DNA of 54,474 nt from contig CAZONC010000001.1 of assembly GCA_964581305.1 (NCBI GenBank), positions 1 through 54,474 on the forward strand. The letters run 5' to 3'. Shown one piece after another: positions 50 through 32,140 of the stretch. The stretch is from an uncultured archaeon (GTDB lineage: Archaea > Aenigmatarchaeota > Aenigmatarchaeia > CG10238-14 > SCSR01). The notes under the pieces were generated by a model. The model was not told where the DNA came from. It saw only the letters and a program-made list of their open reading frames with translations, and made no database searches. The position numbers and the translations under genes are program-made. The stretch's first letter is position 1, and every line of letters starts with the position of its first letter.

Positions 50-2371
50 ATGAAATTTAAACCTAAGTTAGAGGAAAAAAGATGGAACATAATTTTAGAA
101 AAAAAAGTGAGGGATGGTTGGATAAAAGATAAAATATACAGTTTCAATACAAAATCCAAAAAGATATTTAGTATCGATACACCTCCACCATATCCCTCTG
201 GCAGACCTTGGCATATTGGAGCGGTTGCGCATTATTCACAAATAGATATGATTGCTAGAACTGCAAGAATGAAAAAATTTGATGTATTTTTTCCTATAGG
301 AATAGATCGAAATGGCTTGCCTGTTGAGATGTACACAGAAAGATTGTATGGAATAAAAATGCATGATGTGGGAAGGGAAAAATTTATGAAACTATGCCAA
401 AATGCGCTCGATGAACTAGAAAAGGAAATGCTCGAAATAATGAAAATGGTTGGTCTATCATGCGATTTTGATAACTACTATCGAACTGATAGCAAAGAAT
501 TCAGGACGCTTACTCAAAGCACATTTATTGAGCTTTGGAAAAGAGGATTAATTTATGAGGCAACACGACCAAACAATTTTTGCCCAATATGCAAAACTAC
601 AATAGCAGATGCAGAAGTTGTTTATGAAGAAATGCCAACACAACTTGTTTATATTAAATTCAGTGTGAAGGAGACTGGTGAAGAAATTACCATAGCCACA
701 ACAAGGCCGGAATTGTTATGTGCATGTCAAGCTGTTATAGTTAATCCAGAAGATAAAAGATATGTACATCTTCATGGTAAAAATGCTATTATTCCTATTT
801 ATGAACGTGAAGTTCCTATTATCCCACACCCATATGCTGATCCAAAATTTGGAACTGGAATAGTAATGATTTGTAGTTATGGTGATTATTCCGATGTTCG
901 ACTTTTCAGAGAGCTCAAACTTAAGGAAATAATTGCAATCAATGAAGAAGGCAAAATGACAGAAGCAGCCGGTCCTTATGCAGGACTATCAATTGAAGAT
1001 GCAAGAAAAAAAATTATTGCTGATCTTAGTGAGCGCGAACTTATAGAAAAAAAGGAAACAATAACTCATAATATACCAACATGCGAAAGAAGTGGAAATG
1101 CAATAGAAATTATTCCTATGAAAGAATTTTATCTTAAACAATTAGAATTTATACCAACAATGAAAAAAATTGCGAAAAAAATAACTTTCTTTCCGGAGCA
1201 GCATCGCCAACTTCTTATTGATTGGATAAACTCGGTTACAATCGACTGGCCAATTTCACGAAGACGATTTTATGGAACAGAAATTCCAATCTGGTATTGC
1301 AAAAAATGTGGAAATATAAATTTACCTGAGCCAGGCAACTATTATCAACCGTGGCGAGAGAAACCACCATTTAAATGTCAAACGTGTGGTGGAAATGATT
1401 TTGTAGGTGAGGAAAGAACGTTTGATACGTGGATGGATTCGTCCATAACACCACTATTTATTTCCAAATATTATAAAGATAAGAAATTCTTTAGAAAAAT
1501 ATTTCCGAATACCATTAGACCACAAGGAAAAGAAATCGTCCGCACATGGTTATATTATACACTACTTAGATGTTATCAGTTAACAAAAAAACCTGCTTTT
1601 AAATATGTATGGATAAGTGGTCTTGGTTTAGATGAAAAAGGAGAAAAGATGTCAAAAAGTAAGGGGAATGTAATTGATGTGGTACCGATACTTAAAAAAT
1701 ATGGTGCAGATTGTTTTCGATTTTGGAATGCCGCAGAAGCATCACTCGGCTCTGATTTTAGATGTTCTGAACAACGAATAGCTGGTGCAGCAAAGTTTTT
1801 AACAAAATTGTGGAATGTTGCACGATTTGTTTCTTCATTTCCTCAACCGAAAAATGCTAAGCTAACAACAACCGATAAATGGATTTTGGCGGAATTGAGT
1901 AAACTTATCGATGAATGCTTGACAGGATATAATAACTTTAATTTTTTCATTCCCGCAAATAGAATAAGAGAATTTGTTTGGAATTTATTTGCGCCACACT
2001 ATATTGAAATGGTAAAAGCTAGAGCATATGGGAAAGGTTCTAAAAATGAACAACGCTCGGCATGGTTTACACTACACACATGCCTAAAAAATATTTTGCT
2101 TTTGCTTGCACCCATTACACCTTTTATTACTGATTTTATATGGCAATCACTCTATAGCAAGAAATCTATCCACTTGGAGGCCTTCCCAAAAACAAAATGG
2201 AAAAATAAAAAACTATTGGCACTTACACCTTTACTTGTTAAATTTAATTCGAATATTTGGTCTATGAAAAAAGCAAAAAACATTTCTTTAACACAACCAA
2301 TAGAAGTTAAAATACCAGAGAAATTAAAGCAGTTTGAAAAAGATTTAAGAAATATGCATAACATAGTTTGA
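50..2371 (+). CDS. valS: valyl-tRNA synthetase (class I aaRS)
   Basis: 773-aa ORF. HIGH-region PPPYPSGRPWHIGAV followed by the archaeal ValRS-like GIDRNGLPVE. KMSKS loop (KMSKSKGN). Length and the internal editing-size insertion fit a compact ValRS rather than LeuRS or IleRS. Confidence 0.8.
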   Translation: MKFKPKLEEKRWNIILEKKVRDGWIKDKIYSFNTKSKKIFSIDTPPPYPSGRPWHIGAVAHYSQIDMIARTARMKKFDVFFPIGIDRNGLPVEMYTERLYGIKMHDVGREKFMKLCQNALDELEKEMLEIMKMVGLSCDFDNYYRTDSKEFRTLTQSTFIELWKRGLIYEATRPNNFCPICKTTIADAEVVYEEMPTQLVYIKFSVKETGEEITIATTRPELLCACQAVIVNPEDKRYVHLHGKNAIIPIYEREVPIIPHPYADPKFGTGIVMICSYGDYSDVRLFRELKLKEIIAINEEGKMTEAAGPYAGLSIEDARKKIIADLSERELIEKKETITHNIPTCERSGNAIEIIPMKEFYLKQLEFIPTMKKIAKKITFFPEQHRQLLIDWINSVTIDWPISRRRFYGTEIPIWYCKKCGNINLPEPGNYYQPWREKPPFKCQTCGGNDFVGEERTFDTWMDSSITPLFISKYYKDKKFFRKIFPNTIRPQGKEIVRTWLYYTLLRCYQLTKKPAFKYVWISGLGLDEKGEKMSKSKGNVIDVVPILKKYGADCFRFWNAAEASLGSDFRCSEQRIAGAAKFLTKLWNVARFVSSFPQPKNAKLTTTDKWILAELSKLIDECLTGYNNFNFFIPANRIREFVWNLFAPHYIEMVKARAYGKGSKNEQRSAWFTLHTCLKNILLLLAPITPFITDFIWQSLYSKKSIHLEAFPKTKWKNKKLLALTPLLVKFNSNIWSMKKAKNISLTQPIEVKIPEKLKQFEKDLRNMHNIV

Positions 2372-2380
2372 TTGATTTGA

Positions 2381-4582
2381 ATGGAAGAGGAATTACTAAA
2401 AATTAAAAAAATAGTAAAGGAACTAGAAGATGTTAGAGGTAGACATACCGAATTGGTTACAGTATATATTCCTGCAGGTGCCAATCTACAGGAAACCATA
2501 AACATGCTTCGACAGGAATATTCACTTGCGCAGAATGTTAAAGATAAAACTGTGCGAAAAAATGTTATGGCTGCTCTAGATAAAATAATTTACCATCTGC
2601 AGTTTTACAAAGTAACTCCTAAAAATGGATTGGCTGTTTTTTGTGGAAATGTCTCGAAAAAAGAAGGTGTAAGTGATATAAGGCTGTGGTCCATCGAGCC
2701 GCCAGAAAAGCTAACTACAAAAATTTACCGTTGTGATCAGGTCTTTATACTCGAACCACTCAAGGAAATGTTGACAGAAAAAGATGTTTTTGGTCTAATA
2801 GTTTTGGATGCAAACGAAGCAACCATAGGTTTACTTAGAGGAAAGGCCATTACAGTTGTGAAAAAGTTGGAATCAACTGTTCCAGCAAAAACAGTAAAGG
2901 GAGGTATGTGTGTCAGCGAAGATACACTAATCCAGTTAGAGGATGGTAACATTATACCGATAAAAGATCTTACCAATAATAAAAAAATTCTTTCATATTC
3001 TTTCGAAAAGTTTGAGCCAGTTTTTACAGATTCATTTGAAATTTTTAAAAAAAAGGTTAAAAAAAGTTATAAACTGATTTTTGAAGAGCCTTCAACAACA
3101 TTAACACTTACGCCAGAGCATTTGGTTTTTGTTATTAGTAAAAATGGTATAGAAGAAAAGGCTGTGGAAAAAATAAATGTAGGCGATATGCTGCTATTTC
3201 TTCATACAGTATGTCCAAAATGTAAAGACGATTCGACAATTAGTAGTGTTTTATCACAACTGCTAGGTTATTTTCTTGGTGGCGGAACGATTGATGGTAA
3301 TAGAGTAATATTTTATAATAAAGATTTGCAACTTTTAGATGTCTATAAAAAACTTGCTGAAAAAGTAAGCGGTAAAAAAACAGTAATTTATAAAAAAGGT
3401 GGTTCTTACGAATTAAGACTTTATAAAAAATCTTTTGTCGACTTTCTATTGACTAATTTTCCAAAAATTTCAAAACCGCGAAGAGAAAAAGATATAGATG
3501 AAAAAATATTGCATTTACCAAAAAATAAACTAAAACATTTTATTAGAGGGTTATTTGATGCTAAGGGATATGTTGATCAAGCAGGAATAGTCCTAAGAAT
3601 GACTAATGAAAATATCATGAAAAAGCTTCAGCTACTTTTAACGCGTTTTGGTATAGCATCAAGCTTGAGTGGCCCAGATAAATTTGACCGATATGAATTG
3701 CGGATTACAAATGTTTTGTATATCAGCAAATTCAAAAAAGAAATTGGATTTTCTTCTCAGAAAAAAGCTACAAAACTTAATATGGTAATTAAAAAATATA
3801 AAAGTGGATTTGCAACTCGAGTTCCAATATCCGGAATTCGAAAATTAATAGAAAATGCAGGACTGAAAAAGGAAGATTTAAATAAGTACATAGAGAAAAT
3901 TTATGGCTCAAACCTAATTGCACTCAAAGTTAAGGAAAAAATAAAATTGACAACAAACAGTGAATTTTATGATCTGTTCGTTCCTAAATTTAATTGTTTT
4001 GTTGCAAATGGTATACTTGTGCACAATTCACAAAAAAGGTATGATCGCCTTCGTGAAGATGCGCTAAACGAATTTTTCACAAAAGTTGGTGAAACAGCTT
4101 CACAAATATTTTTGCAACAGCCAGAATTGAAAGGAATAATTATAGGTGGGCCTGGCCCAACGAAAGAAAGCTTTGCTTCTAGTGCATATCTTCATCACGA
4201 AATACAGAAAAAAGTTCTGGGTATAAAGGATGTAGGATATACAGATGAATATGGACTAAGCGAACTTGTAAAGAGATCGTCTGATCTTATAGAAAAAGCA
4301 ACTGTGGTGAAAGAGCGAGAATTGGTGGAAAAATTTCTTACAGAGCTACAGAAAGAAGGGAATGTTGTTTATGGCTTAAATGAAACTCTACAAGCACTCG
4401 AGCAAGGTGCAGTAGATACTCTTTTAATCTCCGAGGCAATGGATTTGGCCGAAATAGAAAAATTAATGGAAAAAGCAAAAAGCTATGGCACGCGAGTTGA
4501 ATTAATATCTACTGATACGCCAGAAGGTGTACAATTCAAAGAACTTGGCGGAATAGGTGGATTTTTGCGATATAAAGCCTAA
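2381..4582 (+). CDS. prf1: peptide chain release factor aRF1, interrupted by an in-frame intein
   Basis: N-terminal part has the aRF1 layout (GRHTELVTVYIP, YRCDQVF = YxCxxxF, LIVLDANEATIGLL). C-terminal part has RYDRLRED..FF, IIIGGPGPTKE and GGIGGFLRY. The 733 aa exceed an aRF1 by about 370 aa because of the insert at KGGM|C...HN|SQ. Confidence 0.9.
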   Translation: MEEELLKIKKIVKELEDVRGRHTELVTVYIPAGANLQETINMLRQEYSLAQNVKDKTVRKNVMAALDKIIYHLQFYKVTPKNGLAVFCGNVSKKEGVSDIRLWSIEPPEKLTTKIYRCDQVFILEPLKEMLTEKDVFGLIVLDANEATIGLLRGKAITVVKKLESTVPAKTVKGGMCVSEDTLIQLEDGNIIPIKDLTNNKKILSYSFEKFEPVFTDSFEIFKKKVKKSYKLIFEEPSTTLTLTPEHLVFVISKNGIEEKAVEKINVGDMLLFLHTVCPKCKDDSTISSVLSQLLGYFLGGGTIDGNRVIFYNKDLQLLDVYKKLAEKVSGKKTVIYKKGGSYELRLYKKSFVDFLLTNFPKISKPRREKDIDEKILHLPKNKLKHFIRGLFDAKGYVDQAGIVLRMTNENIMKKLQLLLTRFGIASSLSGPDKFDRYELRITNVLYISKFKKEIGFSSQKKATKLNMVIKKYKSGFATRVPISGIRKLIENAGLKKEDLNKYIEKIYGSNLIALKVKEKIKLTTNSEFYDLFVPKFNCFVANGILVHNSQKRYDRLREDALNEFFTKVGETASQIFLQQPELKGIIIGGPGPTKESFASSAYLHHEIQKKVLGIKDVGYTDEYGLSELVKRSSDLIEKATVVKERELVEKFLTELQKEGNVVYGLNETLQALEQGAVDTLLISEAMDLAEIEKLMEKAKSYGTRVELISTDTPEGVQFKELGGIGGFLRYKA
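2909..4027 (+). mobile_element. class 1 intein with LAGLIDADG homing-endonuclease domain (373 aa) inside aRF1
   Basis: Starts with Cys (CVSEDTLIQLEDG, block A). Block B is TLTPEHLVFV. Two LAGLIDADG-like helices (LLGYFLGGGTIDG, FIRGLFDAKGYV). Ends FVANGILVHN followed by +1 Ser. The insert is 1119 nt and in frame. Confidence 0.85.
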
Positions 4583-5331
4583 ATTTGTAAGTTAAAAAAT
4601 TTTACTGCATTTTCTGTCGTTTGTCTATCAACCTCTTCGAAAGATAACTTTTTTATTTCTGCAATTTTTTCTATGACTACTCGGACAGAAGTTGGATCAT
4701 TTCGCTTTCCACCACCAAGCCATGGAGAATCCGTTTCTGTAAGAATTTGTTCTATTGGCGCATCTCTAACAATTTTCTTTATTTTTTTGCTTGCAAGCAG
4801 TGTGGTATTAACAGAAATATACCATCCATTTTCTACTATTTTTTCAAAAAGCTCTTTTGCTGTAAAAAAATGCATCAAAACGGCTTTTGCACCACAATCT
4901 TTTAAAATTTCAATTGCATCAGCAAAAGCGTTGCGTGCATGAATCACAAGTGGTTTATTCAATTTTTGTGCCAAAGAAATAAATTCGATAAATAGCTCTC
5001 TCTGTTTTGCTCTCCATTCTTGCTCTTTAACCCAGCTATAATCAAGTCCAACTTCTCCTATCCCAACAATTTTATCTTTATTCGCTTCCATCAATTTTAA
5101 AAAATCGCTTTTGCATTGGTCAGAAATTTCTTTTATATATTCTGGGTGAATGCCAACTGTGGCAAAAACAAACCCATTATATCTTTCAACTAATCGCATA
5201 GTTAAATCAAAATCTTTTGGATGGGCGCAAGATGTTATTATCGCTTTTAGCTGCTGCCTGCATTTTTCTATTATTTCATTCCGATCGTCATCGTATTCTT
5301 TTTGCTCAAGATGGCAGTGACAATCGATCAT
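4579..5331 (-). CDS. tatD: TatD-family metal-dependent hydrolase/DNase
   Basis: N-terminal DCHCHL, GEVGLDY, a HARNA-type His and C-terminal TETDSPW, the typical TatD metal ligands. 250 aa. Confidence 0.8.
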   Translation of the reverse strand: MIDCHCHLEQKEYDDDRNEIIEKCRQQLKAIITSCAHPKDFDLTMRLVERYNGFVFATVGIHPEYIKEISDQCKSDFLKLMEANKDKIVGIGEVGLDYSWVKEQEWRAKQRELFIEFISLAQKLNKPLVIHARNAFADAIEILKDCGAKAVLMHFFTAKELFEKIVENGWYISVNTTLLASKKIKKIVRDAPIEQILTETDSPWLGGGKRNDPTSVRVVIEKIAEIKKLSFEEVDRQTTENAVKFFNLQI

Positions 5332-7932: not shown

Positions 7933-8038
7933 GGGCCTGTAGCTCAGCATGGTAGAGCAGCGGGCTTTTAGCATTTGCGAAAAAGCTCTGATCGATGAAG
8001 AGACCCGTTGGTCGAGGGTTCAAATCCCTCCAGGCCCA
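7933..8038 (+). tRNA. tRNA-Lys(UUU) with a 32-nt intron at canonical position 37/38 (intron about 7971-8002)
   Basis: Acceptor GGGCCUG/CAGGCCC. D arm GCUC..GAGC. Anticodon stem GCGGG/CCCGU. Loop CU-UUU-A|intron|A. T arm GAGGG-UUCAAAU-CCCUC. Discriminator A, no encoded CCA. Nt 32-35 CUUU can pair with intron GAAG placed 2 nt before the 3' splice site (BHB-like). Confidence 0.85.
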
Positions 8039-8102: not shown

Positions 8103-8288
8103 ATGTATAACATGAAAAACAAGAAAATAATGGCATTCAGGTTGCCTGAGCAAATAAGGCGAGAAATAGAAAGGGCTGTTGAAGAAGGTATATATAGGGA
8201 TTATACAGAAGTGGTTACAGATGCACTAAGACAATTCTTTAATTTGAAAGTAAATTCAAATATAAAATCTAAAAGGGTGAAGAAATGA
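8103..8288 (+). CDS. small ribbon-helix-helix (CopG-like) protein
   Basis: A beta-strand (IMAFRLPEQ) followed by two helices (IRREIERAVEEG, YTEVVTDALRQFF). The stop overlaps the smc ATG (ATGA). The true start may be an internal ATG. Confidence 0.55.
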   Translation: MYNMKNKKIMAFRLPEQIRREIERAVEEGIYRDYTEVVTDALRQFFNLKVNSNIKSKRVKK

Positions 8289-10774
8289 CACGAATTACAA
8301 AAATCACTTTGCAAGGATTTAAAAGTTTTAATAAAAAGATTTCCATACCTTTTGTTCCTGGTGTCAATATAATTTGTGGGCCAAATGGATCAGGAAAAAG
8401 TAATATTGTAGATAGCATTTGCTTTGTTCTTGGTCGAACATCTGCAAAATCTTTACGTGCCGATCGTTTGCATGAACTAATATTTCATGGTGCGGGTATA
8501 AAAAAGCCGGCTGATTACGCGTCTGTAACGCTTTATCTTGATAATTCGAAAAAAACTTTTCCGTTTGATGACCCAGAAATTTCTATAACACGAAAAGTTA
8601 ATAGAAAAGGTGTTTCGGTTTTTAAAATAAATGGAAAAACAACAACACGTGAAAAAATTTTAGAGTTATTATCTTCTGCACGAATCTATCCAGATGGTCA
8701 CAATATAATTTTGCAGGGTGATGTAACTAATATAATTGAAATGAATCCTATAGAGAGAAGGCAAATAATAGATGAAATATCGGGTATAGCTGAATATAAT
8801 GATAAAAAAGAAAAGGCGAAAAGAGATTTGGAATTTGTAGAGCAAAAGTTGAAAGAAGCAGAAATAATAATTTCGCAAAAATATGACATATTTAAAAAAT
8901 TAGAGGAAGAAAGAAATGCAGCTATTAAATATCAGGATTTACAAAAGAAGTTGCTAATTCTTAAAGCATCTTATGCTTATAAAAAAATGAAAAATTGTGA
9001 AGCAGAACTTGAAAAATTAGAAGTTGGGTTATTTACAAAGGAAGAACAAATTAAACGAAATGATGAAGATATAAGAAAAATAGAGGAAGAATTGGAAAAA
9101 AAAGAAAATGAAATAAGAGCGATTGCTAATCGTGTTGTTGAAATTTCAAAAAAGATAAAAATTGAAAAAAAACTTTCTGAATTGCGATCGCAAATTTTAC
9201 TTAAAAAAGAGCGAATTTCATCGAATTTACGTGAAATTGAGCGAATTGATAGTTTAATAGAAAAACTCGAAGCACTGATAGCACAAAAAACAGAATTTTA
9301 CGAATTGCCACGAGCAGTTGCGGCTATTCTTGATTTAAATCTAAAAGGGGTTTATGGAATTGTAAGAGATTTAATTAATGTTCCTGAAAAGTATAAAGTA
9401 GCAATTGAAGTTGCAGCAGGCCCACATTTATATGATATTATTGTTGAAAATGAGGATGTTGCAACATATTGTATAGAATATTTAAAAAAAGAAAAAATAG
9501 GACGAGCTGTATTTTTGCCGCTAAATAAAATAAAACCTATTCTTTTTAAAGATAATGAGCTATTAAATAAAAAGGGTGTAATTGGAATTGCATCAGGGCT
9601 TATTAAATATCCTACGAAATTTATGAATGCAATAGAATTTGTGTTTGGAAATACACTAGTTGTTGAAAATCTTGATGTGGCTAAAGAGCTTATTGGCAAA
9701 GCACGTGTTGTTACACTAGATGGTGAATTAATTGAGAAATCTGGTGCAATTATTGGTGGATACTATGCAAAGGTTCACTCTGCGACTATTGAAAATGTAA
9801 AAAAGGAGATAGAAAATTATATAAAGATAAGAAAAAATTTGCAGATTGAAACGGAAAAGCTTAGGGCCGAAGTGGCTGAATTGGAAAAAAGAATAGCAGA
9901 TTTTGAGCTTCTGCCAGAAACAAAAGAAATAATAGATCTGGAAAAAATAAGGATTGTTTCTGAAAAGGAAATCGAAGAATTAAAACAAAGAAGAAGAATT
10001 GCATATGAAAAAAGAATAAAATTGCAAAGTGAGATTGATAAAATAAGAATGGAAAAAGCACGACTCGAAGCAGAGCATAATATAGCTATGTCTGAAGTTC
10101 AGCAATATGGTGAAGTAAAATATATTGATGAAAAGTTAACTGTTCTTGGAAATCTAATTCAAAAAGTTATAAAAGAATTGAACGCGATTGGACCTGTAAA
10201 TTTGCGTGCGATAGAGGAATATGAAAAATTTGCTCAAGAATTCGATGAGTATAAGAAAAAATATGAGAAAATTTTAGAAGAAAAGAAGGCTGTTCTTAGA
10301 ATGATCGAAGAAATTGAGGCAAAAAGAAAAGAAACATTTTATAAATGTCTCGAGCGTGTTAATGAAGAATTTAAAAAAATATTTTATGAAATGCTGAAAG
10401 GTAATGCTAATTTGGAACTTGAAAATCCGATGGATATTGAAAGTGGATTACTTATACAAGCAAATCCAAGAGGAAAAATGCTACTAAACATTGATACAAT
10501 GTCTGGTGGGGAAAAAACATTAACTGCGCTAGCATTTTTGTTTGCTATACAAAGCTATAAACCAGCACCATTTTATATTTTAGACGAAATTGATGCGGCA
10601 CTAGATAAAGAAAATACAAAAATAATGGCTGAATTAATTAAAAGACATTCAAAAGATGCACAATTCATTGTTATAACTCACAATGATCAAACAATAAAAT
10701 ATGGTGATGTTGTTTATGGGTGTACAATGGTTGATGGCGAAACAAAAATATTAGGATTGAGGTTGCCAGCATGA
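8285..10774 (+). CDS. smc: SMC chromosome segregation ATPase (compact, 829 aa)
   Basis: FKSF..GPNGSGKSN Walker A. Long Glu/Lys coiled coils flank a hinge (GVYGIVRDLI...). Signature LSGGEKTLTALAFLFAIQ and Walker B FYILDEIDAALD. Confidence 0.9.
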   Translation: MTRITKITLQGFKSFNKKISIPFVPGVNIICGPNGSGKSNIVDSICFVLGRTSAKSLRADRLHELIFHGAGIKKPADYASVTLYLDNSKKTFPFDDPEISITRKVNRKGVSVFKINGKTTTREKILELLSSARIYPDGHNIILQGDVTNIIEMNPIERRQIIDEISGIAEYNDKKEKAKRDLEFVEQKLKEAEIIISQKYDIFKKLEEERNAAIKYQDLQKKLLILKASYAYKKMKNCEAELEKLEVGLFTKEEQIKRNDEDIRKIEEELEKKENEIRAIANRVVEISKKIKIEKKLSELRSQILLKKERISSNLREIERIDSLIEKLEALIAQKTEFYELPRAVAAILDLNLKGVYGIVRDLINVPEKYKVAIEVAAGPHLYDIIVENEDVATYCIEYLKKEKIGRAVFLPLNKIKPILFKDNELLNKKGVIGIASGLIKYPTKFMNAIEFVFGNTLVVENLDVAKELIGKARVVTLDGELIEKSGAIIGGYYAKVHSATIENVKKEIENYIKIRKNLQIETEKLRAEVAELEKRIADFELLPETKEIIDLEKIRIVSEKEIEELKQRRRIAYEKRIKLQSEIDKIRMEKARLEAEHNIAMSEVQQYGEVKYIDEKLTVLGNLIQKVIKELNAIGPVNLRAIEEYEKFAQEFDEYKKKYEKILEEKKAVLRMIEEIEAKRKETFYKCLERVNEEFKKIFYEMLKGNANLELENPMDIESGLLIQANPRGKMLLNIDTMSGGEKTLTALAFLFAIQSYKPAPFYILDEIDAALDKENTKIMAELIKRHSKDAQFIVITHNDQTIKYGDVVYGCTMVDGETKILGLRLPA

Positions 10775-12540: not shown

Positions 12541-13269
12541 ATGGAAAAAATATTGGGAAAAAGATCTTTTGTGAATTTTATTTTAGAATTAGAAAAAGAA
12601 AGAAGTGATGCATATGATATGATCTCTGCGTATATTACAAACCTATCTACAATTGATAAACTGAATGTAGAAACAGAGGTTAAGGAAAAAATAATTGAAC
12701 AATTTAAAAAAAGCGCATTTGGAATAGTACTTTTTTACTGGGAAAGAGGAGGAAAAAAAATAATAATATTTCCACCATTTCCACTTTTAAGAGAAGAGAT
12801 TTTTTATAGAAACACATTTGTTACGGAGCAGATAAGAGAAATTCTAACGAAAAAACATGTAATTGGTGTAATATTATTACACATAGGACAATATGCTGTT
12901 GGAATTTTTGAAAATGAAAAATTAATAAGTTCGAAATGTGGCAAACATTTTGTGCTGAGAAGACAGAAAAAGGGCGGTTCAAGTGCTAGAAGATTTCAAA
13001 GAATAAGAGAAAAGCAAATAGAAAGTTTTTTTAATGAAGTTTATGATGTAGTAAAAGAAAAGTTCGGTCCGCATATAGATAAAATAAACTATATTATATT
13101 TGGTGGGCCAAAATTAACTATTAAGAAGTTTCAGCAAAGGAATCATTTTATGAAAAAAATTATGGAGAAAACACTTAAAAAAAATATTGTTATAAGAGAA
13201 GCAAATAGAGAAAATTTGGAAAAAAGTTTGGCAGAAATATGGAAAACGAGGATTTGTGAATTGATATGA
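12541..13269 (+). CDS. eRF1-middle-domain paralog (Vms1/ANKZF1-like, VLRF1-type putative peptidyl-tRNA hydrolase)
   Basis: IGVILLHIGQYAVGIF...RRQKKGGSSARRFQRIREKQIESFFNEV...IIFGGPKLT runs parallel to the aRF1 M domain in this same window (LIVLDANEATIGLL...KTVKGGM/SQKRYDRLREDALNEFFTKV...IIIGGPGPT). It has no aRF1 N (codon-reading) domain. Confidence 0.65.
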   Translation: MEKILGKRSFVNFILELEKERSDAYDMISAYITNLSTIDKLNVETEVKEKIIEQFKKSAFGIVLFYWERGGKKIIIFPPFPLLREEIFYRNTFVTEQIREILTKKHVIGVILLHIGQYAVGIFENEKLISSKCGKHFVLRRQKKGGSSARRFQRIREKQIESFFNEVYDVVKEKFGPHIDKINYIIFGGPKLTIKKFQQRNHFMKKIMEKTLKKNIVIREANRENLEKSLAEIWKTRICELI

Positions 13270-14108
13270 TATATGTAATAAAATTTGATGGTAGTAGGCA
13301 ACCATTTGAAAAAACAAAAGTTGTGCGCACATGTGTAAATTTAGGTTTGAGCCAGTCTGAAGCCAAGCAAATCGCTGATAAAGTTGAAAGCGAATTGTAT
13401 GATGGAATTTCTACAAAAAAAATTTTGCAACTGATTTTTAATTATGTAAAGGAATATAAACCTGAAATTGCACATATTATCGACTTAAGAGATGCAATAA
13501 GTTTATTGAGGCCAAAACCAGATTTTGAACTTTTTGTTCAAATGCTTCTAAGAGAAATTGGATATGATGTTATACCAAACCAAATTGTACGTGGTGCATG
13601 TATAGAACATGAAGTTGATGCGATTGCTAAAAAAAATGGAAAAAATATTTTTGTGGAAATTAAACATCATATTCAGCCTCATACATACACAGGTGTCGAT
13701 GTTTGCTTAGAAACTCAGGCAAGACTGGAGGATCTAAAAGAAGGATATAAAATGGGTAAAACAGAAATAAATTTTGACCATGCATTAATTGTTTGCAATA
13801 CAAAATTTTCCGAACATGCAAAACAGTATGCAGCATATAAAAAAATAGAACTACTTGGCTGGCGATGTCCTGAAAATAGAGGGATAGAAAAAATAATTGA
13901 AGAAAAAAAATTCTATCCTATAACGCTCATAAAGGAGTCGGAAGTATTTGATGGTATAGTGAGAGGGCGGTTAGTAGATAGTGGAATTATTCTTTTAAAA
14001 CAATTAGTAAAAGCAGATTTGAATGAGTTGGCAAAAAAAACAAAAATTGGTATAGGTAGATTAGAAAAAATTGTACATACGGCAAAAGAAATTCTAGGTA
14101 CTAGTTGA
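13266..14108 (+). CDS. ATP-cone domain fused to a PD-(D/E)xK (Mrr-like) restriction-endonuclease fold and a C-terminal HhH
   Basis: N-terminus VIKFDGSRQPFEKTKVVRTCV...ISTKKI resembles the ATP-cone. The middle part has EVDAIAKKNGKNIFVEIKHH (D...ExK). The C-terminus LNELAKKTKIGIGRLEKI is helix-hairpin-helix-like. ATGA overlap with the upstream gene. Confidence 0.65.
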   Translation: MIYVIKFDGSRQPFEKTKVVRTCVNLGLSQSEAKQIADKVESELYDGISTKKILQLIFNYVKEYKPEIAHIIDLRDAISLLRPKPDFELFVQMLLREIGYDVIPNQIVRGACIEHEVDAIAKKNGKNIFVEIKHHIQPHTYTGVDVCLETQARLEDLKEGYKMGKTEINFDHALIVCNTKFSEHAKQYAAYKKIELLGWRCPENRGIEKIIEEKKFYPITLIKESEVFDGIVRGRLVDSGIILLKQLVKADLNELAKKTKIGIGRLEKIVHTAKEILGTS

Positions 14109-19437: not shown

Positions 19438-19954
19438 TTAATTTGTTTTAGGATTATATTTTATTTTAGCAATTTTTTTTACTTCATTAAAAGCTTTCTC
19501 AGTCGTTTGATTTCCGTCCACAATAACTATTTTCTCATCTCGCAATATTTTCGGAAGGACCAAGAAATTTTTTCTAACTTTACTAAGAAATTCCACATCT
19601 TCAAACTTAACTTTTTTGGCTTTGCTTTTTCAACCTTTTAATACATTCGTTGGGTGAGGTGCTAATTATTATTGTTAAGTCTGGTTTAGGAAAATATTTG
19701 TTTAATTCTAATAACCAACTCAACTCTAGGCCATAAGCATTTTGATATGCTAATGAGGAATGATAAGTATCTATCTGAAATAACTATTTTTCCTTGTTCC
19801 AAATAAGGAAGAATTACATTTTTCAAATGTTCTTTGCGAAAAGAAGAGCATCTGTCTTTTGGATAGCCATTTGATTTAAGCCAATTGAAAAGTAATGCTG
19901 CTTGAGTGGATTTTCCAGAACCATCGCCTATTCTATTACAATAATTTAAAAAAA
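19438..19954 (-). pseudogene. tmk: thymidylate kinase pseudogene (at least two frameshifts, an internal deletion, no start codon)
   Basis: Three reading frames each carry consecutive Tmk pieces. Frame 1: GDGSGKSTQAALLFNWLKSNGY...GKIVISDRY. Frame 2: SLAYQNAYGLELSWLLELNKYFPKPDLTIIISTSPNECIKRLKK. Frame 3: KVKFEDVEFLSKVRKNFLVL...IVIVDGNQTTEKAFNEVKKI, then stop at 19438-19440. Confidence 0.75.
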
Positions 19955-20039
19955 TGGGTCCGGCCGGATTCGAACCGGCGACCTTCGCCATTTTGCTTCG
20001 CACGTCAAGGCGACGTCATACCAGCTAGACCACGGACCC
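19955..20039 (-). tRNA. tRNA-Val(GAC) with a 12-nt intron at 37/38 (about 19991-20002)
   Basis: Acceptor GGGUCCG/CGGACCC. D arm GUCU..GAC. Anticodon stem UCGCC/GGCGA. Loop UU-GAC-G|UGCGAAGCAAAA|U. T arm GCCGG-UUCGAAU-CCGGC. Discriminator A. Confidence 0.85.
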
Positions 20040-20040
20040 A

Positions 20041-20157
20041 CGCTGGAGCGGGGATTTGAACCCCGACGGTCTTACGACCACCAGCTATCCACATTTTAAT
20101 CCAGGTTAGCAGATTCGTCCTTTATCTGGCGCCTTAACCTGGTTCGGCCACTCCAGC
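20041..20157 (-). tRNA. class II tRNA, best read as tRNA-Ser(GCU), with two intervening sequences (12 nt at 20114-20125; 20 nt at 20087-20106)
   Basis: Acceptor GCUGGAG/CUCCAGC with discriminator G. D arm GCC..GGC. Long variable arm U-GGUC-GUAA-GACC-GU. T arm CGGGG-UUCAAAU-CCCCG. The 117 nt are about 32 nt too long. Removing ATAAAGGACGAA and ACCTGGATTAAAATGTGGAT gives stem CCAGU/GCUGG and loop CU-GCU-AA. Confidence 0.7.
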
Positions 20158-32041: not shown

Positions 32042-32140
32042 TGGGCCAGGAGAGATTTGAACTCTCGACCTCTCGCTTGCTTAGCCGCCTTATAAGGCGA
32101 TTAAGCACAATTGCGCTCCACCAGGCTAAGCTACTGGCCC
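32042..32140 (-). tRNA. tRNA-Ile(UAU) with two introns (12 nt at 32101-32112 in the anticodon stem, position 27/28; 13 nt at 32078-32090, position 37/38)
   Basis: Acceptor GGGCCAG/CUGGCCC, discriminator A. D arm GCUU..GAGC. T arm GAGAG-UUCAAAU-CUCUC. Removing AATTGTGCTTAA and AGGCGGCTAAGCA yields a perfect stem CUCGC/GCGAG, loop CU-UAU-AA and a 74-nt cloverleaf closely resembling archaeal tRNA-Ile. Confidence 0.7.

What the first reader, a model, noticed from the sequence alone, without database searches (positions are those of the whole stretch)
2534..4033. Predicted spliced aRF1 lacks the universal GGQ glutamine (GG-M|S-Q) and has NVKD instead of NIKS
With canonical junctions (Cys1 at 2909, HN|S at 4025-4030) the ligated extein reads TVKGGMSQKRYDRLRE. 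Archaeal aRF1 normally reads ..GGQSQRRFERL.., so the alignment is residue for residue except Q->M (ATG at 2906-2908). The codon-recognition motif reads QNVKDKT (2534-2545) where aRF1/eRF1 has NIKS. TAA, TAG and TGA all terminate confident genes in this window (for example rpl37e TAA, dph2 TAG, smc TGA), so the genetic code looks standard and a fully functional RF is needed. Possible explanations are a catalytically unusual RF, a register shift that uses the Gln two residues downstream (MSQ), a second aRF1 elsewhere, or a consensus error.
Basis: partly seen in the sequence, partly recalled or inferred. Interest (0 to 1): 0.8.

Follow-up and report, generated by a model that had tools for sequence, protein, structure and literature searches.

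The report
Archaeal release factor without GGQ glutamine
The protein that ends translation in this DPANN archaeon, and in a whole lineage of its relatives, has methionine where every textbook release factor has its catalytic glutamine, so the "universal" GGQ motif has natural exceptions that look functional.

Summary
ORF 2381-4582 is an aRF1 gene split by a 373-residue intein (2909-4027). Splicing gives a 360-residue aRF1 that reads ...KGGM|SQKRYDRLRE, with NVKD in place of NIKS.

It is not an assembly error. Two independent metagenome assemblies carry the same ATG. All 120 closest database homologs, mostly intein-free Aenigmatarchaeota proteins, read GGM (a few GGW or GGF).

It is not a spare paralog. 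GGM, GGW, GGF and GGQ versions all occupy the same ValRS-aRF1-TatD locus, and no genome appeared twice among 80 species representatives.

Across 342 archaeal aRF1 sequences the glutamine was replaced by Met, Trp, Phe, Ala or Ser at least about nine separate times. Eight of those nine origins have Gln two residues downstream (GGxSQ), against 19% of GGQ proteins (p about 1e-5). GGxSQ is the published catalytic motif of the Vms1-like aVLRF-1 and acVLRF-1 release factors.

My best reading is a functional, sole aRF1 with a remodelled catalytic loop in which Gln178 probably replaces the lost glutamine. However, 13 relatives lack both glutamines, so catalysis without the glutamine side chain remains a real rival.

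NVKD is minor variation, and all three stop codons end genes in the window. I found no published description. This is a new variant of a known kind.

The parts
2381..4582 (+). aRF1 precursor ORF (733 aa including the intein; TAA stop at 4580-4582)
   Evidence: ORF list. Pfam eRF1_1, eRF1_2 and eRF1_3, and NCBIfam TIGR03676 at 436 bits, on the spliced product.
2381..2908 (+). N-extein (residues 1-176), ending in ...TVKGGM
   Evidence: Aligns to aRF1 and eRF1 structures.
2534..2545 (+). NVKD, the NIKS-equivalent stop-codon recognition motif (N and K conserved)
   Evidence: 24 sequences with NVKD form one subclade inside the GGM clade.
2726..2746 (+). YRCDQVF, an intact YxCxxxF codon-recognition motif
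   Evidence: Y, C and F are invariant in alignments A1 and A3.
2900..2908 (+). GGM, the position of the canonical GGQ; the Met codon ATG is at 2906-2908
   Evidence: GGM occurs in 132 of 342 aligned aRF1s.
2909..4027 (+). 373-residue class-1 intein with a LAGLIDADG domain, inserted inside the catalytic loop. It has Cys1, TPEH (block B, 3110-3121) and a terminal HN.
   Evidence: Pfam Intein_splicing, Hint and LAGLIDADG_3; NCBIfam intein_Nterm and intein_Cterm. 68 of 390 aRF1s carry a homologous intein at the same site.
3260..3289 (+). LAGLIDADG motif 1 (LLGYFLGGGT). The catalytic Asp, read as GDG in the 13 homologs that keep the motif (P0121 is itself degenerate), is Gly here.
   Evidence: Alignment with 14 homologous aRF1 inteins.
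3539..3571 (+). LAGLIDADG motif 2 (FIRGLFDAKGY). The catalytic acid, read as DAEG or DADG in homologs, is Lys here.
4028..4579 (+). C-extein, starting SQKRYDRLRE. Ser+1 is at 4028-4030 and Gln178 of the spliced protein is at 4031-4033.
   Evidence: Gln at this position is the only site that co-varies with loss of the GGQ Gln across independent origins.
50..2371 (+). Valyl-tRNA synthetase-like gene immediately upstream (conserved synteny partner)
   Evidence: ORF. tblastn synteny across loci. tRNA-synt_1 plus Anticodon_1 calls at the same position in L084-L088.
4579..5331 (-). TatD-family hydrolase gene, convergent with aRF1 (conserved synteny partner)
   Evidence: Pfam TatD_DNase, 239 bits. 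Synteny.

Best explanation
This is the single, orthologous class-I release factor (aRF1) of an Aenigmatarchaeota (DPANN) archaeon. An intein sits inside its catalytic loop. The intein has intact splicing motifs and should excise itself, joining Met176 to Ser177 to give a 360-residue aRF1. That protein recognises all three stop codons through a normal N domain: HTE, E46, N-V-K-D and YxCxxxF. Its peptidyl-tRNA hydrolysis loop reads GG-M-S-Q instead of GG-Q-S-x. This is a selected, lineage-wide state, not damage. The canonical glutamine has been replaced by a hydrophobic residue (Met here; Trp or Phe in sister lineages). I infer that this residue keeps the backbone NH and fills the packing role of the methylated Gln side chain in the peptidyl-transferase centre. 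I also infer that Gln178, at the N-terminus of the following helix, takes over the polar, water-coordinating role, as in the GGxSQ catalytic motif of the Vms1-like aVLRF-1 and acVLRF-1 factors. Shown here: the sequence, the junctions, orthology, lineage-wide conservation, the recurrent Q-to-hydrophobic change, and its coupling to Gln at +2. Inferred: that the protein is catalytically active, and which residues do the chemistry.
For: The identity as aRF1 is solid:
- TIGR03676 scores 436 bits and all three eRF1 domains are present.
- PDB aRF1 hits reach E=4e-75.
- The AF2 model has mean pLDDT 87.9 and matches aRF1 and eRF1 structures (TMq up to 0.87).

The Met is real:
- The ATG is identical in the independent assemblies L081 and L082.
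- All 120 best homologs read GGM, GGW or GGF.

The gene is the ortholog:
- ValRS lies directly upstream in 8 of 9 GGM loci. The same holds for 18 GGQ, 2 GGW and 1 GGF loci, with TatD downstream in many GGM and GGQ loci.
- The 80 species-representative loci come from 80 different genomes.

The change is recurrent and coupled to +2 Gln:
- Among 342 sequences there are GGQ 170, GGM 132, GGW 30, GGF 7, GGA 2 and GGS 1.
- Non-Q forms are followed by SQ in 159 of 172 cases, against 32 of 170 for GGQ.
- Fitch parsimony needs at least 15 state changes. Nearest-neighbour checks support about nine independent losses of Gln.
- Eight of those nine origins have SQ (binomial p=1.2e-5).
- Position 178 is the only discriminating column that also holds in the independent origins.

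There is a precedent: aVLRF-1 and acVLRF-1 carry GGxSQ as their catalytic motif (PMC6514570).

The code is standard and the factor is needed: all three stops end full-length core genes.

The intein looks splicing-competent: blocks A, B, F and G are intact, and intein-free relatives read GGMSQ.
Against: Thirteen relatives have no Gln at either position (GGM-SA, GGM-SS, GGW-SA, GGS-SA). Two of these (P0005, P0031) sit in the same ValRS-aRF1-TatD locus, so Gln178 cannot be strictly required. The VLRF-1 loop is described as longer than the classical one (PMC6514570), whereas this loop has the classical length, so the geometry may differ. No complete genome could be scanned, so a second aRF1 is not formally excluded. 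No biochemical data exist. The field's mutational data on GGQ come from bacteria, yeast and human, not from these ribosomes.
Confidence: 0.6

Rival explanations
1. Catalysis without any glutamine. The aRF1 is the functional sole release factor, but no Gln side chain takes part. The backbone NH of residue 176 and hydrophobic packing by Met, Trp or Phe are enough, and Gln178 is only a permissive or historical neighbour.
For: 13 sequences lack Gln at both 176 and 178. P0005 and P0031 among them occupy the orthologous locus. Published structural work assigns the Gln side chain a 'packing role' and has the main-chain NH coordinate the water (PMC5799190). A cited study title states that mutating the Gln in human eRF1 does not abolish activity (reference B52 in PMC2613156).
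Against: It does not explain why 8 of 9 independent losses occurred on an SQ background (p=1.2e-5). It also does not explain why 178 is the only co-varying site, or why Gln178 is kept in 92% of non-Q proteins.
Confidence: 0.25
2. The GGM aRF1 is catalytically dead or specialised, for example a stop-codon binder or rescue factor. Peptide release is then done by another protein encoded elsewhere in the genome.
For: The canonical Gln is described as essential and universal (PMC6144793; PMC2613156). The rest of the genome could not be searched. The window does encode a second aeRF1-superfamily protein (12541-13269).
Against: The gene is the positional ortholog of GGQ aRF1s. Each genome gave one hit among the top 80 loci, including a complete 742-kb chromosome and 0.77-0.79-Mb contigs. 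No GGQ protein shared a contig with a GGM protein; the single contig-length match proved to be two different contigs. The codon-recognition and C-terminal motifs are fully conserved. The VLRF1-like ORF has no codon-recognition domain and itself reads GGSSA.
Confidence: 0.08
3. Sequencing or consensus error, or a decaying pseudogene.
For: None beyond the prior expectation that GGQ is invariant.
Against: Two independent assemblies have the same ATG, one of them with a synonymous difference three codons upstream. 132 GGM sequences come from many projects. The reading frame is intact through 733 codons, and the conserved motifs and intein splicing blocks are intact.
Confidence: 0.01

Closest known systems
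Canonical archaeal/eukaryotic class-I release factor aRF1/eRF1 (TIGR03676; structures 4af1, 3agk/3vmf, 1dt9)
   Same: It has the three-domain architecture and a gap-free alignment through the catalytic loop. YxCxxxF, E46, the N and K of NIKS, the R180/R183 helix and the C-terminal G(F/I)LRY are conserved. It lies at the orthologous genomic position. Like A. pernix aRF1, it lacks the domain-C insertion.
   Different: The glutamine of GGQ is Met (Trp or Phe in sister lineages). NIKS reads NVKD. The G-Q-X3-R context preferred by the Mtq2/HEMK2 glutamine methyltransferase (PMC10804810) has no Gln, so the usual N5-methylation target is absent.
aVLRF-1 / acVLRF-1 (Vms1-like release factor clade of the aeRF-1 superfamily)
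   Same: The catalytic loop motif is GGxSQ, as reported for these families (PMC6514570). The window's own VLRF1-like family reads GG[YFS]SQARF in 6 of 7 members, which closely parallels the GG[MWF]SQxRY of these aRF1s.
   Different: The protein here is a full aRF1 with the stop-codon recognition N domain and the C domain. It scores far higher on aRF1 models: 436 bits on TIGR03676, against 36 bits on NF041024 acVLRF1 (cutoff 125). VLRF-1 proteins act in ribosome rescue, not codon-dependent termination, and are described as having a longer catalytic loop.
Pelota/Dom34
   Same: It is an aeRF1-superfamily member that lacks the catalytic Gln.
   Different: Pelota lacks the whole GGQ minidomain as well as NIKS and YxCxxxF (PMC2613156). 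Here all of these are present. The TIGR00111 pelota score is 109 bits, below its cutoff of 177.65.
Inteins in conserved active-site loops (class-1 intein with a LAGLIDADG homing endonuclease)
   Same: It has Cys1, TxxH, a terminal HN and Ser+1, with Hint and LAGLIDADG domains. It is inserted at the most conserved functional site of an essential gene.
   Different: Both endonuclease catalytic acids are substituted. I found no open-access paper that mentions an aRF1 intein, although 68 of the 390 aRF1s collected here carry one at this site.

Membership tests
aRF1/eRF1 class-I release factor | Three domains (eRF1_1, eRF1_2, eRF1_3) and a score above the curated equivalog cutoff | tested here: met
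   Pfam 66, 140 and 91 bits. TIGR03676 436 bits against a cutoff of 234.7. Foldseek top hits are aRF1 and eRF1.
aRF1/eRF1 class-I release factor | GGQ tripeptide at the tip of domain M | tested here: not met
   It reads GGM, and Met176 aligns to the Gln of 4af1, 3agk and human eRF1. The protein is an aRF1 by descent (orthology) but fails the motif-based functional definition. I therefore file it as a variant, not a standard member.
aRF1/eRF1 class-I release factor | NIKS stop-codon recognition motif | tested here: inconclusive
   It reads NVKD. N and K are kept and I to V is conservative. S is known to vary to L, N or D (PMC2613156). NIKD, NVKS, NVKN and NIKL occur in GGQ-type archaeal aRF1s.
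aRF1/eRF1 class-I release factor | YxCxxxF motif and the conserved Glu (human E55 equivalent) | tested here: met
   YRCDQVF at 2726-2746. E46 is present in 339 of 342 sequences.
aRF1/eRF1 class-I release factor | Single-copy, orthologous gene in the genome | tested here: inconclusive
   Shared ValRS-aRF1-TatD synteny and one locus per genome among 80. Whole genomes could not be scanned.
aRF1/eRF1 class-I release factor | Stop-codon-dependent peptidyl-tRNA hydrolysis activity | not testable with these tools
   This needs an in vitro release assay or genetic complementation.
VLRF-1 clade (aVLRF-1/acVLRF-1) | GGxSQ catalytic loop motif | tested here: met
   GGMSQ. The motif definition comes from PMC6514570.
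VLRF-1 clade (aVLRF-1/acVLRF-1) | VLRF-1 domain architecture: no eRF1 N-terminal codon-recognition domain, and the best profile match is to VLRF-1 models | tested here: not met
   The eRF1_1 domain is present. NF041024 acVLRF1 scores 36 bits against a cutoff of 125. It is not a VLRF-1 member and only resembles one in the loop motif.
Class-1 intein | Cys/Ser1, block B TxxH, terminal His-Asn, and a +1 Cys/Ser/Thr | tested here: met
   C177, TPEH at 3110-3121, HN at 4022-4027 and S at 4028-4030. Pfam and NCBIfam intein models match.
LAGLIDADG homing endonuclease (active) | A catalytic acidic residue at the end of each of the two LAGLIDADG motifs | tested here: not met
   GGG replaces GDG and DAKG replaces DAEG, compared with 14 homologous inteins. 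The domain fold is present (PF14528, 72 bits), but the nuclease is probably inactive.

The most novel reading that the evidence does not exclude
The 'universally conserved' catalytic glutamine of class-I release factors is not universal. Much of the phylum Aenigmatarchaeota (the GGM and GGW lineages; other members keep GGQ), and several other archaeal lineages independently, would terminate all translation with a sole aRF1 whose GGQ Gln is replaced by Met, Trp or Phe. Most of them would use a Gln relocated two residues downstream, and some would use no loop Gln at all. If so, the Mtq2-dependent N5-methyl-Gln modification is dispensable in these organisms. The hydrophobic residue may stand in permanently for the methylated side chain.
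Probability: 0.7. Interest if true: 0.85.

Novelty: new variant of a known kind. Interest (0 to 1): 0.78.

Why it matters
GGQ is repeatedly described as universal and essential in all three domains of life (for example PMC6144793, PMC5799190 and PMC2613156). The exact job of its glutamine, and of the conserved methylation, is still debated.

Natural, selected replacements give that question a ready-made experimental series: Met, Trp, Phe, Ala and Ser, with and without a downstream Gln. They arose about nine times in the factor that is apparently the cell's only release factor.

They also link classical release factors to the GGxSQ loop of Vms1-like rescue factors. They predict lineage-specific loss or retargeting of the Mtq2 methyltransferase. 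They caution annotation pipelines and genetic-code predictors against using 'GGQ present' as a test for a functional release factor.

Tried and rejected
- **Exact look-up of the 733-aa precursor.** It is not on record. I used the neighbouring VLRF1-like protein P0271 instead to find independent assemblies.
- **Taxon names for the independent non-Q proteins via cluster members.** No taxon names were returned.
- **Co-occurrence test by matching 'longest contig' lengths between GGM-type and GGQ-type hit lists.** The single match (22,536 bp, P0119 against P0365) proved to be two different contigs. The look-ups did reveal the shared synteny.
- **Search for an Mtq2/HemK-like methyltransferase** ([ND]PP[YFW] plus a SAM motif) in the window and 88 loci. 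It found only a METTL5-like ORF in L070, so loss or retention of Mtq2 remains untested.
- **Suppressor-tRNA check.** The window has four intron-containing tRNA genes, and none is predicted to read a stop codon. Anticodon calls are unreliable because of the introns.
- **A possible in-frame stop in aIF2-gamma.** Rejected: the ORF is a full 407 aa with a GTG start.
- **A different splice junction that restores GGQ.** Rejected: intein-free relatives read GGMSQ.
- **Literature searches.** Searches for GGQ with DPANN phylum names, for GGM/GGW/GGF with release factor, and for an aRF1 intein found nothing relevant. PMC60236 and PMC2175178 are not held.
- **Methionine sulfoxide as a Gln mimic.** Considered only as a thought. 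The Trp and Phe variants at the same site argue against it.
Full report
**What is there**

ORF 2381-4582 (+) encodes 733 residues. Removing residues 177-549 leaves a 360-residue protein.
- That protein matches Pfam eRF1_1, eRF1_2 and eRF1_3. It scores 436 bits against NCBIfam TIGR03676 'peptide chain release factor aRF-1', whose cutoff is 234.7.
- The removed segment matches the Intein_splicing, Hint and LAGLIDADG_3 models and the NCBIfam intein N- and C-terminal models.
- Coordinates: GGM 2900-2908 (ATG 2906-2908), intein 2909-4027, Ser+1 4028-4030, Gln 4031-4033, NVKD 2534-2545.

**Is Met really at the GGQ position?**

Yes. phmmer alignments to solved structures are gap-free through the loop and place Met176 on the glutamine:
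- 4af1 aRF1: vpgkqrkggQsaqrfarlr
- Aeropyrum pernix aRF1 (3agk): vpgkhkmggQsqrryeri
- human eRF1: lpkkhgrggQsalrfarlr

An AlphaFold2 model built with 60 homologs has mean pLDDT 87.9. It shows residues 165-177 as a loop, with the long helix starting at Gln178. Foldseek returns aRF1 and eRF1 structures first, with TMq up to 0.87 to eRF1 in 5lzt.

**Is it an error?**

No.
- The same locus was assembled independently from JGI sample 3300022546 (L081, 100% identical over the gene) and from SRR7539614 (L082, 99.85% identical). L082 has a synonymous ACA to ACG change three codons upstream. Both assemblies have ATG followed by TGT.
- All 120 best database homologs read GGM, with a few GGW or GGF. Most are intein-free, and the named ones are Candidatus Aenigmatarchaeota MAG proteins.
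- The closest relatives (P0001-P0003, 74-76% identical) have no intein and read KGGMSQ(A/G)RYDRLRE. This also validates the predicted splice junction.

**How far does it extend?**

I combined the 50%-identity representative search with one locus from each of 80 GTDB species representatives. A 342-sequence alignment of the complete sequences gives these counts:

| Motif | Sequences |
|---|---|
| GGQ | 170 |
| GGM | 132 |
| GGW | 30 |
| GGF | 7 |
| GGA | 2 |
| GGS | 1 |

- Within Aenigmatarchaeota, species representatives split into GGM, GGW and GGQ groups. The GGW group includes the complete chromosome CP070804.1.
- Two Nanoarchaeia genomes have GGF.
- Woesearchaeota, Pacearchaeota, Thermococcus and the others have GGQ.
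- A neighbour-joining tree with Fitch parsimony needs at least 15 state changes at this residue.
- Nearest-neighbour identities support roughly nine independent losses of Gln:
  - one at the base of the large Aenigmatarchaeota clade;
  - four separate changes to Trp (P0244, P0202, P0167, P0228);
  - two to Phe (P0176, and L042/L044 with P0131);
  - one GGA pair;
  - one GGS.
- For example, the GGFSQ proteins L042 and L044 are 70% identical to the GGQSQ protein L024, but only 54% identical to any GGM protein.

**The coupled residue**

- Non-Q proteins are followed by Ser-Gln in 159 of 172 cases (92%). GGQ proteins are in 32 of 170 (19%).
- Counting origins rather than sequences, 8 of 9 have SQ (binomial p=1.2e-5).
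- I scanned all 360 positions. Position 178 is the only column that separates non-Q from Q proteins and also holds in the independent origins (0.9). Position 181 (Tyr) is weaker (0.6). Every other discriminating column is clade-specific.
- The window itself encodes such a protein (12541-13269; Pfam acVLRF1, 73 bits). Its six database homologs read GG[YFS]SQARF.

**Ortholog or extra copy?**

- In the window, aRF1 lies 10 nt downstream of a ValRS-like gene and converges on a TatD gene.
- A ValRS gene sits directly upstream on the same strand in 8 of 9 GGM loci. The same holds for 18 GGQ, 2 GGW and 1 GGF loci. TatD lies downstream in many GGM and GGQ loci (gene calls).
- The 80 loci come from 80 different genomes, including 0.74-0.79-Mb chromosomes or contigs.
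- A search seeded with a GGQ-type Aenigmatarchaeota aRF1 found no protein sharing a contig with a GGM-type protein.
- The window has no other full aRF1.
- The GGM gene is therefore the positional ortholog of ordinary aRF1. I could not scan whole genomes, so a second copy is unlikely but not excluded.

**Does the cell need a fully competent release factor?**

Yes. The 54 long ORFs end in TAA (28), TGA (13) and TAG (13), including ATGA overlaps. Core genes show full-length profile matches up to their stops. These include PheRS alpha and beta, ProRS, LysRS, the thermosome, Dph2, SMC and aIF2-gamma. None of the four intron-containing tRNA genes is predicted to be a suppressor, although the anticodon calls are uncertain.

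**NVKD**

- The 24 NVKD sequences form one subclade inside the GGM clade.
- N and K are essentially invariant across the 342 sequences. NIKD (28 sequences, 25 of them with GGQ), NVKS (11), NVKN and NIKL also occur.
- A. pernix aRF1 has NIKL.
- Atkinson et al. already noted that the S of NIKS can be L, N or D, and that Tetrahymena eRF1 has NIKD (PMC2613156).
- E46 and YxCxxxF are intact.
- NVKD is therefore ordinary variation in a factor that evidently serves all three stop codons.

**Mechanism**

Shown here:
- the intein has Cys1, TPEH, HN and Ser+1, and these align with 14 homologous aRF1 inteins;
- 68 of 390 aRF1s carry an intein at this exact site, whatever the -1 residue is (Q 47, M 12, W 6, F 2, S 1).

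Inferred:
- splicing restores the loop;
- the backbone NH of residue 176 and the hydrophobic side chain supply the positioning and packing that published structures attribute to the (methylated) Gln (PMC5799190);
- Gln178 supplies the polar group, as in GGxSQ factors.

Gln178 lies in an S-Q-K-R-Y-D context. That does not fit the G-Q-X3-R preference of the human Mtq2 homolog (PMC10804810), so methylation is probably not involved.

**The main caveat**

Thirteen relatives have no Gln at 176 or at 178. Two of them (P0005 and P0031, both GGM-SA) are in the orthologous ValRS-aRF1-TatD locus. Either Gln178 helps but is not essential, or hydrolysis in this lineage no longer needs a Gln side chain at all. 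I keep that as the main rival.

**Comparison with what is known, and novelty**

- By descent this is an aRF1. It fails the motif that is used to define class-I release factors functionally.
- Its loop resembles VLRF-1, but it is not a VLRF-1: it has the N domain, and its acVLRF1 score is far below cutoff.
- The literature I could read calls GGQ universal in a/eRF1 and proposes Gln methylation for archaea in general.
- Five full-text searches found no report of GGM, GGW or GGF release factors, of GGQ variation in DPANN archaea, or of an aRF1 intein.
- The library is open-access only, so prior notice elsewhere cannot be excluded.
- I rate this a new variant of a known kind, of high interest to the translation-termination field.

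Noticed in passing
window 12541-13269 (+); motif at 12973-12987: A second aeRF1-superfamily gene lies directly after scpB. It is VLRF1-like (Pfam acVLRF1, 73 bits). Its catalytic loop reads GGSSARRF, with no Gln at all, whereas its six database homologs read GG[YFS]SQARF, the published GGxSQ motif. Only 7 proteins were found for this family at E<=1e-5.
   Followed up: partly
window 3260-3289 and 3539-3571 (inside the intein, 2909-4027): Both LAGLIDADG catalytic acidic residues are substituted. GDG has become GGG and DAEG has become DAKG, compared with 14 homologous aRF1 inteins. All splicing blocks are intact, so the homing endonuclease looks inactive while the intein is retained.
   Followed up: yes
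proteins P0220, P0225, P0229, P0254: Some archaeal aRF1s appear to carry a second intein, inserted just before the Cys of the YxCxxxF codon-recognition motif (...VHN|CDDHF). Some have inteins at both sites, with lengths up to 1452 aa. The GGx|S intein site itself is very common: 68 of the 390 aRF1s collected.
   Followed up: partly
window 7933-8038 (+), 19955-20039 (-), 20041-20157 (-), 32042-32140 (-): Rfam finds four intron-containing tRNA genes. Default ARAGORN finds only one, and gives it a 2-base anticodon. Two of the genes abut head to tail at about position 20040. With the intron option the anticodon calls (Phe-AAA, Tyr-ATA) look unreliable, which suggests non-canonical intron positions. 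The 101-aa ORF 19686-19991 is a spurious read across one of these tRNAs.
   Followed up: partly
window 4310-4400 region of aRF1 domain C (alignment A1, columns about 330-380): The window aRF1 and several close relatives (350-365 aa) lack the roughly 40-residue CxxC...CxxC insertion in domain C. The 400-aa Aenigmatarchaeota aRF1s have it. A. pernix aRF1 (373 aa) is similarly short.
   Followed up: no
window 50-5331 and loci L001-L088: The gene order ValRS, then aRF1, then a convergent TatD is conserved across Aenigmatarchaeota. The ValRS-aRF1 adjacency extends to many Woesearchaeota, Pacearchaeota and Nanoarchaeia genomes.
   Followed up: yes
window 13266-14108 (+): This ORF overlaps the VLRF1-like gene by 4 nt (ATGA). 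It combines an ATP-cone, an Mrr-type restriction-endonuclease fold and an AF1548-like C-terminal domain. It may be functionally linked with the rescue-factor-like gene.
   Followed up: no
window 8285-10774 (+): The SMC protein is only 829 aa yet matches the head and hinge profiles end to end. This implies unusually short coiled-coil arms. It is followed by scpA and, after a deaminase gene on the opposite strand, scpB.
   Followed up: no
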